DNA from: a virus
Lineage: Duplodnaviria; Heunggongvirae; Uroviricota; Caudoviricetes
IMG/VR virus record: IMGVR_UViG_2698536313_000011
Strand: one strand, 5' to 3'
Length of the DNA: 13,451 bases
Positions within the stretch are counted from its first letter, which is position 1, and the number at the start of each line of letters is the position of its first letter. A program made the translations under genes and the position numbers. Positions 8,790-10,463 of the stretch are shown here, piece after piece. Below the pieces are notes generated by a model. It was not told the DNA's origin and made no database searches. It saw only the letters and a list, made by a program, of their open reading frames with translations.

Positions 8790-10463
8790 ATGGGTAAAGG
8801 AAGCAGTAAGGGGCATACCCCGCGCGAAGCGAAGGACAACCTGAAGTCCACGCAGCTGCTGAGTGTGATCGATGCCATCAGCGAAGGGCCGGTTGAAGGT
8901 CCGGTGGATGGATTAAAAAGCGTGCTGCTGAACAGTACGCCGGTGCTGGACAGTGAGGGGAATACCAATATATCCGGCGTCACGGTGGTGTTCCGGGCCG
9001 GTGAGCAGGAGCAGACACCGCCGGAGGGATTTGAATCCTCCGGCTCCGAGACGGTGCTGGGTACGGAAGTGAAGTACGACACGCCGATTACCCGGACCAT
9101 CACGTCGGCAAACATCGACCGTCTGCGCTTTACCTTCGGTGTGCAGGCACTGGTGGAAACCACCTCAAAGGGGGACCGGAATCCGTCGGAAGTCCGCCTG
9201 CTGGTTCAGATACAGCGTAATGGTGGCTGGGTGACGGAAAAAGACATCACCATTAAAGGCAAAACCACCTCACAGTATCTAGCATCGGTGGTGGTGGGTA
9301 ACCTGCCGCCGCGCCCGTTCAATATCCGGATGCGCAGGATGACGCCGGACAGCACCACAGACCAGCTGCAGAACAAAACGCTCTGGTCGTCATACACCGA
9401 AATCATCGATGTGAAACAGTGCTACCCGAACACGGCACTGGTCGGCGTACAGGTGGATTCGGAGCAGTTCGGCAGCCAGCAGGTGAGCCGTAATTATCAT
9501 CTGCGCGGGCGTATTCTGCAGGTGCCGTCGAACTATAACCCGCAGACTCGGCAATACAGCGGTATCTGGGACGGAACGTTTAAGCCAGCATACAGCAATA
9601 ACATGGCCTGGTGTCTGTGGGATATGCTGACCCATCCACGCTACGGCATGGGGAAGCGTCTTGGTGCGGCGGATGTGGACAAATGGGCGCTGTATGTCAT
9701 CGGCCAGTACTGCGACCAGTCAGTGCCGGATGGCTTTGGTGGCACGGAGCCGCGCATCACCTGTAACGCTTACCTGACCACACAGCGTAAGGCGTGGGAT
9801 GTGCTCAGTGATTTCTGTTCGGCGATGCGCTGTATGCCGGTATGGAACGGGCAGACGCTGACGTTCGTGCAGGACCGACCGTCGGATAAGGTGTGGACCT
9901 ATAACCGCAGTAATGTGGTGATGCCGGATGATGGCGCGCCGTTCCGCTACAGCTTCAGCGCCCTGAAGGACCGCCATAATGCCGTTGAGGTGAACTGGAT
10001 TGACCCGGATAACGGCTGGGAGACGGCGACAGAGCTTGTTGAAGATACGCAGGCCATTGCCCGTTACGGTCGTAACGTCACGAAGATGGATGCCTTTGGC
10101 TGTACCAGCCGGGGGCAGGCACACCGCGCCGGGCTGTGGCTGATTAAAACGGAGCTGCTGGAAACGCAGACCGTGGACTTCAGCGTGGGTGCAGAAGGGC
10201 TTCGCCATGTACCGGGCGATGTCATTGAAATCTGTGATGATGACTATGCCGGTATCAGCATCGGCGGGGGGGGGGGGGGGGGGGGGGGGGGGGGGGGGGG
10301 GGGGGGGCGGGGGGGGGGGCGGGGGGGGGGGCGGGGGGGGGGGCGGGGGGGGGGGCGGGGGGGGGGGCGGGGGGGGGGGCGGGGGGGGGGGCGGGGGGGG
10401 GGGCGGGGGGGGGGGCGGGGGGGGGGGCGGGGGGGGGGGCGGGGGACAGCTTCAGCGCCCTGA
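8790..10463 (+). CDS. J: Host specificity / central tail fibre protein J, N-terminal portion (disrupted after nt 10268)
   Basis: [34 protein letters not shown].. closely matches the lambda gpJ N-terminus as recalled. Homology runs to ..[11 protein letters not shown] at about 10268. The as-written ORF then reads through the G-tract (poly-Gly with Arg every 4th codon) and stops at 10463 out of frame. Confidence 0.85.
9949..10268 (+). repeat. Direct repeat copy 1 (320 bp of J coding sequence)
   Basis: Identical to 10446-10765 at a 497-nt offset except one mismatch (A at 10193 vs C at 10690, a synonymous GCA/GCC Ala codon). Compared by hand. Confidence 0.9.
10266..10445. repeat. Anomalous 180-bp G-tract with C at every 12th position (42 G, then 12 units of C+G11, last unit truncated)
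   Basis: Seen directly. C at 10308, 10320, 10332, ... 10440 (period 12), all other bases G. The first 3 G overlap genuine J sequence. Confidence 0.95.

What the first reader, a model, noticed from the sequence alone, without database searches (positions are those of the whole stretch)
10266..10445. 180-bp G-tract with strict 12-nt C periodicity interrupting the J host-specificity gene
A run of 42 G followed by twelve C+G11 units sits inside J at the ..[11 protein letters not shown] codon position. Nothing like this is expected in an enterobacterial phage coding region: it is 100% GC, homopolymeric, and has exact 12-nt periodicity. As written it encodes poly-Gly with Arg every 4th codon on the plus strand and poly-Pro/Ala on the minus strand, which explains three spurious ORFs in the track. 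The tract plus one flanking repeat copy is 497 bp, not a multiple of 3, so J is frame-broken. Most likely explanation: a sequencing or assembly artefact (poly-G is the no-signal call of two-colour Illumina chemistry, or gap filler). Less likely: a genuine insertion that inactivates J and leaves the prophage tail-defective. A G-quadruplex-forming tract of this size would be unstable and unprecedented if real.
Basis: seen in the sequence. Interest (0 to 1): 0.8.

Follow-up and report, generated by a model that had tools for sequence, protein, structure and literature searches.

The report
Scaffold-gap filler inside phage J gene
The 180-base G tract and the repeat beside it are left-overs of scaffolding and gap filling in a 2015 draft E. 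coli assembly, not DNA of the prophage, whose tail gene J is intact once 497 bases are removed.

Summary
In detail: window 10266-10445 is G42 + 11x(C G11) + C G5, flanked by a 319-320-bp direct repeat at an offset of 497 bp that breaks the J frame. It is an assembly artefact. The window is the whole 13,451-bp record CYFE01000064.1 of draft assembly GCA_001284065.1. That record matches window 487-13451 except at 10446, where it has N, not A. So the right edge of the tract is a one-N scaffold gap, not a sequenced junction. The two "repeat copies" are the unmerged overlapping ends of two contigs. The G tract is a one-sided, low-complexity extension of the left contig into the gap. Removing 497 bp gives a 1159-aa J identical to gpJ of E. 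coli TB354. None of the 4,372 complete E. coli genomes whose match covers at least 80% of the query showed extra sequence in the rows inspected. The same C(G11C)3 motif sits within 2 nt of contig ends in two unrelated metagenome assemblies. The sequencing platform, the software used and the cause of the 12-nt period are inferred or unknown. Interest is low: not a real feature.

The parts
8790..10268 (+). 5' part of the lambda-type tail-tip gene J (left contig of the scaffold). It reads through into the filler and stops at 10463.
   Evidence: Window 1-10268 is collinear with E. coli TB354 (L001 703-10969) with 3 mismatches and 1 gap. The region is annotated gpJ there. The gene was called as a 557-aa product in the public record.
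9950..10268 (+). Copy 1 of the apparent duplication. It is the end of the left contig and carries the A allele at 10193.
   Evidence: It is identical to TB354 and AZ155 over this stretch.
10266..10445 (+). G-rich filler: G42 + 11x(C G11) + C G5. It is not phage DNA. The first 3 G's coincide with genuine J bases.
   Evidence: It is absent from TB354 and AZ155. The motif recurs at contig ends elsewhere.
10446..10446 (.). Residual scaffold gap: 'N' in record CYFE01000064.1, written as 'A' in the window.
   Evidence: This is the only difference between window 487-13451 and the public contig.
10447..10765 (+). Copy 2 of the apparent duplication. It is the start of the right contig and carries the C allele at 10690.
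   Evidence: Window 10446-13451 matches L001 10650-13655 with 1 mismatch, which is the C at 10690. Both alleles are common in E. coli J genes.
10447..12766 (+). 3' part of J (right contig). A 759-aa product from 10487 was called in the public record (CTZ13193.1).
   Evidence: Pfam families on record: Phage-tail_3, Ig_J, Phage_Tail_Tip, Ig_GpJ_C.
10189..10476 (+). Spurious ORF created by the filler (95 aa).
10255..10554 (-). Spurious minus-strand ORF through the filler (99 aa, poly-Pro). The 576-aa ORF 10244-11974 (-) also runs into the filler.

Best explanation
The window is a scaffold, not a contig. Two contigs of a short-read draft assembly of an E. coli lambdoid prophage really overlap by about 319 bp within J (window 9950-10268 equals 10447-10765). 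They were linked by read pairs with a gap instead of being merged, which produces the apparent tandem duplication. A gap-closing step then extended the left contig edge base by base into low-complexity G-rich read junk. One N was left in front of the right contig. The tract's length therefore reflects software limits, not DNA. The real prophage has an intact 1159-aa J. Shown: the N at the junction, the duplication geometry, restoration of J, absence of the insert from the close relatives that were aligned, and recurrence of the motif at contig ends. Inferred: which scaffolder and gap filler were used (Velvet + SSPACE + GapFiller of the Sanger pipeline is a good candidate), that the G-rich reads are no-signal or low-quality read tails, and why the period is 12.
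For: (1) The public record CYFE01000064.1 is 13,451 bp, the same length as the window. It equals window 487-13451 except for N at 10446, directly between the tract and copy 2. (2) Window 1-10268 and 10446-13451 map to overlapping stretches of TB354 (L001 703-10969 and 10650-13655) at 99.96% identity. (3) Removing 497 bp, keeping either copy, gives a 1159-aa J with 0 differences from TB354 gpJ. (4) 4,372 complete E. coli genomes have a match covering at least 80% of the query, and every listed hit spans 1602-1604 bp for the 2101-bp query, i.e. 2101 minus 497. (5) C(G11C)3 has one hit in 596 Gb of genome contigs and one in the JGI metagenome contigs. Both lie within 2 nt of a contig end in unrelated organisms. 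A 2-unit degenerate version lies at another contig end. (6) Runs of G>=42 are common in assembled IMG/VR contigs, and 99 of 120 lie within 150 nt of the end of the held stretch. One internal case has the same [X][poly-G][X] layout. (7) Above k=55 the tract holds only 43 distinct k-mers, so reads shorter than about 200 nt cannot determine its length. (8) Literature. GapFiller extends gap edges one nucleotide at a time with 30-mers at coverage of at least 2. The Sanger pipeline runs 120 GapFiller iterations using only reads that are not proper pairs, and its authors warn of false joins. A gap between duplicated copies is a hallmark of false duplication. Poly-G is the no-signal call of two-colour chemistry.
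Against: No raw reads, AGP file or assembly metadata could be examined, so the software and platform are not shown. The assembly's accession was not found in the held, truncated supplement of the pipeline paper. If the assembly came from four-colour HiSeq or MiSeq data, as most of that pipeline's did, the two-colour origin of the G's would not apply. The strict 12-nt period is not explained. It is not a general feature of poly-G tracts in other assemblies. It is unclear why genuine reads did not outvote junk at 10268. The exclusion of proper pairs in that pipeline would explain it, but this is conjecture. The N could in principle be an artefact of the copy held by the tool, but its exact position at the junction makes that very unlikely.
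Confidence: 0.86

Rival explanations
1. A false loop in a de Bruijn graph. Reads with G-rich tails would create an extra edge from J position 10268 back to 9949, and the assembler would traverse the loop once (S1-X-filler-X-S3) with no scaffolder involved.
For: It gives the same [X][filler][X] geometry. Assembled contigs do run into G-rich junk. A similar layout without a visible N occurs in L061.
Against: It needs reads that go from G's into real sequence on the same strand, which dark-cycle tails do not produce. It also does not predict an N at the junction, yet the record has one. Two traversals of one graph edge should be identical, but the copies differ at 10193/10690.
Confidence: 0.07
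2. A real insertion in this strain: a 319-bp tandem duplication within J with a G-rich filler. It would truncate J and leave the prophage unable to make infective tails.
For: The sequence as deposited contains it. The two copies differ by one synonymous base, and both alleles occur naturally in E. coli J genes. Defective prophages are common.
Against: There is an N at the junction in the record. The insert is absent from the two close relatives aligned directly (TB354, AZ155). The 17 listed genomes with at least 99.8% identity span only 1604 bp for the 2101-bp query. The longest G run elsewhere in the window is 7. The same motif appears at contig termini of unrelated organisms. Short reads cannot measure such a tract. 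From general knowledge, a G42 run would be highly unstable through replication slippage.
Confidence: 0.02
3. Data corruption of an N gap: a run of about 180 N's recoded as G by software that packs bases into 2 bits, with another character recoded as C every 12th position.
For: From my own knowledge, not tested here, common bit tricks such as (c>>1)&3 map N to G. The C's fall at contig coordinates that are exact multiples of 12 (10308 = 12 x 859). The tract is exactly 180 nt long.
Against: One N survives next to the tract, which recoding would not leave behind. The phase coincidence has a 1-in-12 chance, and the other occurrences are in different phases (3 and 9 mod 12). Nothing known produces a 12-character record. 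In L003 and L004 the motif adjoins real sequence at contig ends, as read tails do.
Confidence: 0.03

Closest known systems
False duplication flanking a scaffold gap (unmerged overlapping contig ends)
   Same: Two near-identical copies lie on one scaffold, separated by a gap. Removing one copy plus the gap restores collinearity with relatives. The copies show small differences that fit independent consensus calls. [quoted passage not shown]
   Different: Here all but one N of the gap has been replaced by low-complexity bases, so the record looks like a contiguous contig and the gap is nearly invisible.
Greedy gap closure (GapFiller after SSPACE, as in the Sanger prokaryote assembly pipeline)
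   Same: Gap edges are extended one base at a time by k-mer overlap. Iteration is repeated, and N's are left when closure criteria are not met. The pipeline's authors acknowledge a risk of false joins, and it uses only reads that are not proper pairs (PMC3446322; PMC5320598). The record has ENA-style accessions (CYFE..., CTZ13193.1). My dating of it to about 2015 comes from the accession series and my own knowledge.
   Different: Use of this software for GCA_001284065.1 is inferred, not shown. The accession was not found in the held part of the paper's supplement.
Poly-G read tails of two-colour (NextSeq/NovaSeq) Illumina chemistry
   Same: Long G homopolymers attach to the 3' end of genuine sequence. 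In public assemblies they lie mostly at contig ends. 'No light detected is called G' (PMC6129281; PMC13218037; PMC13465854).
   Different: The platform of this assembly is unknown. The regular C every 12 nt is not described in these papers, and the motif string was not found in any paper of the library.
Lambda gpJ (tail tip / host specificity protein)
   Same: The interrupted gene is a 1159-aa J once repaired. It is 100% identical to TB354 gpJ, lies in a lambda-like tail module (Z, U, V, G/T, H, M, L, K, I, J, lom), and has the expected Pfam families.
   Different: Nothing about the gene itself is unusual. Only the deposited sequence is broken.

Membership tests
Scaffold-gap / gap-filling artefact | A gap symbol (N) at the junction in the deposited sequence | tested here: met
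   Record position 10446 is N. It is the only difference from the window.
Scaffold-gap / gap-filling artefact | Sequence on the two sides of the gap is the same genomic stretch (overlapping contig ends) | tested here: met
   Window 9950-10268 equals 10447-10765 with 1 mismatch. Both map to TB354 L001 10650-10969.
Scaffold-gap / gap-filling artefact | Removing one copy plus the filler restores the gene and collinearity with relatives | tested here: met
   The repaired J is 1159 aa with 0 differences from TB354 gpJ. All listed hits in complete genomes and phages span 1602-1604 bp for the 2101-bp query.
Scaffold-gap / gap-filling artefact | No concordant reads span the filler, and read depth is halved over the two copies | not testable with these tools
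   Raw reads of GCA_001284065.1 are not available here.
Scaffold-gap / gap-filling artefact | The assembly was made with a scaffolder and a gap closer | not testable with these tools
There are only indirect hints: ENA-style accessions and the pipeline description.
Two-colour Illumina poly-G artefact | A G homopolymer follows genuine sequence in the 3' direction | tested here: met
   J sequence up to 10268 is followed by G42.
Two-colour Illumina poly-G artefact | The data come from a two-colour (or one-colour) instrument | not testable with these tools
   The platform is unknown. Most assemblies of the candidate pipeline were four-colour HiSeq or MiSeq.
Two-colour Illumina poly-G artefact | Such tracts recur at contig ends in unrelated assemblies | tested here: met
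   99 of 120 G>=42 tracts in IMG/VR lie within 150 nt of the end of the held stretch. The period-12 motif lies within 2 nt of contig ends in L003 and L004.
Phase-variable homopolymer tract (contingency locus) | The tract is present at the same site in relatives, with variable length | tested here: not met
   No G run of 12 or more in the 21.6-kb TB354 locus. AZ155 aligns collinearly across the junction. Listed hits in other genomes span the query length minus 497 bp.
Genuine tandem duplication in J | A directly sequenced junction between the copies | tested here: not met
   The junction consists of low-complexity filler plus an N.
Lambda-type tail tip protein J | Sequence identity to annotated gpJ, J-specific domains and a lambda tail-module context | tested here: met

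The most novel reading that the evidence does not exclude
The tract and duplication are physically present in this strain: a real 497-bp insertion (a 319-bp tandem duplication plus a roughly 180-nt G-rich, 12-nt-periodic filler) that inactivates J. The N would then be only a local base-calling failure at the junction.
Probability: 0.02. Interest if true: 0.6.

Novelty: not a real feature. Interest (0 to 1): 0.04.

Why it matters
It has no biological importance. The prophage almost certainly has an ordinary, intact J gene. It matters only for data hygiene. A public GenBank/ENA record (CYFE01000064.1) carries a nearly invisible scaffold gap whose N's were replaced by junk. That yields two truncated 'proteins' in public protein databases: the 557-aa J fragment with a poly-Gly/Arg tail, and CTZ13193.1. 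It could also be misread as a pseudogenised tail gene, a G-quadruplex element or a gene duplication. The motif C(G11C)n and long G runs beside direct repeats or single N's are cheap flags for this class of error in automated scans. Replacing N by A when preparing windows hides the most diagnostic character.

Tried and rejected
1. An exact look-up of the 557-aa J/poly-Gly product found nothing. The 759-aa C-terminal product did identify the source record.
2. I searched for other (GGGR)n 'proteins' to find sister artefacts in the same submission batch. 8000 candidates were collected and none scored, presumably because of composition filtering.
3. A literature search for the motif string gave 0 papers. 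A search for the assembly accession gave only an unrelated hit. The accession is not in the held, truncated supplement of the Sanger pipeline paper.
4. I tested whether 12 is a favoured period. Two-unit patterns with G10 and G12 gave 0 hits in viral contigs against 1 for G11, which is too few to conclude. There was no enrichment of G11 runs inside 120 poly-G tracts.
5. I considered whether the C allele of copy 2 is a sequencing error. This was rejected as unnecessary, because both alleles are common natural variants (843 and 254 records with the exact 71-mers). The difference could come from reads of a paralogous J gene.
6. I considered whether C's at coordinates divisible by 12 indicate an encoding artefact. 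This is a 1-in-12 coincidence, and the other occurrences are in other phases.
7. An Rfam scan of the window found no family.
8. Biological readings (phase-variable tract, G-quadruplex element, reverse-transcriptase or template-independent polymerase product) were rejected. The tract is absent from the relatives examined, and there is a gap symbol at the junction.

Full report
**Observation.** Window 10266-10445 is a 180-nt stretch of only G (168) and C (12). It is 42 G, then eleven C+G11 units, then C+G5. The C's lie at 10308 to 10440, exactly 12 nt apart, and Tandem Repeats Finder reports period 12, 15.5 copies, 97% matches. The longest G run elsewhere in the window is 7, and the expected number of G42 runs is about 1e-17. 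The tract lies inside the long ORF that starts at 8790, after ...[11 protein letters not shown]. It is flanked by the only large repeat in the window: 9949-10268 versus 10446-10765, offset 497 (mod 3 = 2), with one synonymous mismatch (10193 A versus 10690 C). The frame break gives a 557-aa product with a Gly/Arg tail (8790-10463). It also creates several ORFs through the tract on both strands.

**Gene context.** The window is a lambda-type tail module. By transfer from the annotated TB354 locus it contains FI, a head-tail joining gene, Z, U, V, G/T, the tape measure, M, L, K, I, a small ORF, J and lom. E. coli TB354 (NZ_AP038814.1) is the closest complete genome.
- Window 1-10268 aligns to L001 703-10969 with 3 mismatches and 1 gap.
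- Window 10446-13451 aligns to L001 10650-13655 with a single mismatch.
- The two alignments overlap by 320 bp in TB354, so the window equals TB354 plus 497 extra bases.
- Deleting 497 bp, keeping either copy, yields a 1159-aa J with no differences from TB354 gpJ.
- A match covering at least 80% of the 2101-bp query occurs in 4,372 complete E. coli genomes and 240 phage records. Every listed hit spans 1602-1604 bp, the query length minus 497.
- TB354 has no G run of 12 or more in the 21.6-kb locus.

**Source record and the decisive character.** An exact look-up of the 759-aa C-terminal J product found one contig: NCBI GCA_001284065.1, CYFE01000064.1, 13,451 bp. The window is thus the entire record. 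Its protein is CTZ13193.1, 'fibronectin type III [Escherichia coli]'. The public DNA (held as L005, contig 487-13451) is identical to the window at every position but one: window 10446 'A' is 'N' in the record. The record reads ...CGGGGG N CAGCTTCAGC.... The right-hand edge of the tract is therefore not a sequenced junction but a one-N scaffold gap. This explains the puzzle of how a read could pass from G's back into real sequence 319 bp upstream: none did.

**Mechanism.**
- Shown. The record is a scaffold of two pieces. The left piece ends in J at about 10268 plus G-rich filler. The right piece starts at the J position equal to 9950. The two pieces represent overlapping genomic stretches.
- Inferred. 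A scaffolder linked the two contigs through read pairs and inserted N's instead of merging the overlap. A gap closer then extended the left edge one base at a time into low-complexity G-rich reads until its size limit was reached, leaving one N.

This inferred behaviour matches GapFiller: 30-mer overlap extension, minimum coverage 2, edges re-trimmed each iteration, and closure accepted only if the size fits (PMC3446322). It also matches the Sanger prokaryote pipeline, which creates N gaps with SSPACE. That pipeline runs 120 GapFiller iterations on only those reads that are not proper pairs, a pool that I infer is enriched for junk. The authors warn of false joins, and the pipeline produced 30% of GenBank bacterial assemblies by February 2016 (PMC5320598). 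Above k=55 the tract contains only 43 distinct k-mers. A k-mer extension therefore cycles, and the tract's length is not a measurement. Gaps between duplicated copies on one scaffold are a recognised hallmark of false duplication (PMC9516828). The single A/C difference between the copies fits independent consensus at two contig ends. Both alleles are common in E. coli J genes (254 and 843 records), and genomes hold a median of 2 copies of this stretch.

**Independent signs that the filler is technical.**
- The 37-mer C(G11C)3 has a single hit in 596 Gb of species-representative genomes. It lies at the last bases of a MEGAHIT MAG contig (JAEWVY010000051.1, 6297-6333 of 6335).
- It has a single hit in the JGI metagenome contigs, at bases 3-39 of Ga0307967_1001746.
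- A two-unit degenerate form lies 15 nt from the end of an IMG/VR contig.
Of these, 99 lie within 150 nt of the end of the held stretch and 21 are internal.
- One internal case (L061 9905-9951) shows the same layout, a direct duplication of about 95 bp on both sides of G47.
- Poly-G as the no-signal call of two-colour chemistry is documented.

**What remains open.** I could not establish the sequencing platform, the software or the raw-read support. The accession is not in the held part of the pipeline paper's supplement. If the data were four-colour HiSeq or MiSeq, the G's need another source of low-quality reads. The exact 12-nt period is unexplained. It is not a general property of poly-G tracts, the neighbouring periods gave too few hits to compare, and no paper in the library contains the motif. 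None of this affects the conclusion that the tract is not phage DNA.

**Rivals.**
- A de Bruijn-graph false loop would give the same geometry. It does not predict the N or the difference between the copies.
- A real insertion is contradicted by the N, by the absence of the insert from the close relatives examined, and by the recurrence of the motif at contig ends of unrelated organisms.
- Recoding of N's to G's does not explain the surviving N or the read-tail-like occurrences elsewhere.

**Verdict.** This is an artefact of scaffolding and gap filling in a public draft assembly. Interest is very low apart from its value as a quality-control flag.

Noticed in passing
window 10446: The window has 'A' where the deposited record CYFE01000064.1 has 'N'. 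The substitution happens to match the genuine J base (9949 A).
   Followed up: yes
window 2983-2989 (gpG 2576-3007, T ORF 3034-3447): The slippery heptamer GGGAAAG lies 18 nt before the gpG stop, as in the lambda G/GT programmed -1 frameshift. The heptamer occurs 3 times in the window against 2.1 expected, so only its position is meaningful.
   Followed up: partly
window 8250-8750: A low-GC island (36-37% against about 57% around it) lies between tail gene I (7710-8312) and J (8790). It holds a 112/116-aa ORF (8373-8723) with no Pfam hit and an AT-rich palindrome at 8660-8723. It looks like a moron-type insertion and is annotated 'hypothetical protein' in TB354 and AZ155.
   Followed up: partly
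window 5380 / L001 6082 (TB354 tape measure gene): TB354's tape measure gene is annotated 'frameshifted'. It lacks one base opposite window 5380, whereas the window ORF 3428-6001 is an intact 857 aa. This is probably a homopolymer error in the TB354 assembly.
   Followed up: partly
L061 9780-10060 (IMGVR_UViG_2914902374_000002): This is an independent example of the same layout. A direct duplication of about 95 bp lies on both sides of a G47 run, with a few mismatches at the start of the second copy. It is probably another misassembly in a public viral contig.
   Followed up: partly
L003 6297-6335; L004 1-39; L006 12142-12181: The unusual period-12 motif (G11C)n, or its complement, sits at the extreme ends of three unrelated public contigs. 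It seems to be a rare, recurring and undocumented technical signature whose cause is unknown.
   Followed up: partly
L007-L126 (IMG/VR loci): At least 120 IMG/VR contigs contain G or C runs of 42 or more. 21 of them are internal and may be chimeric joins of unrelated sequence through poly-G.
   Followed up: partly
window 8883-8905: A short 12-nt tandem repeat (GAAGGGCCGGTT x1.9) near the 5' end of J encodes EGPVEGPV. It is also present in the intact J proteins of relatives, so it is genuine and unrelated to the filler.
   Followed up: no
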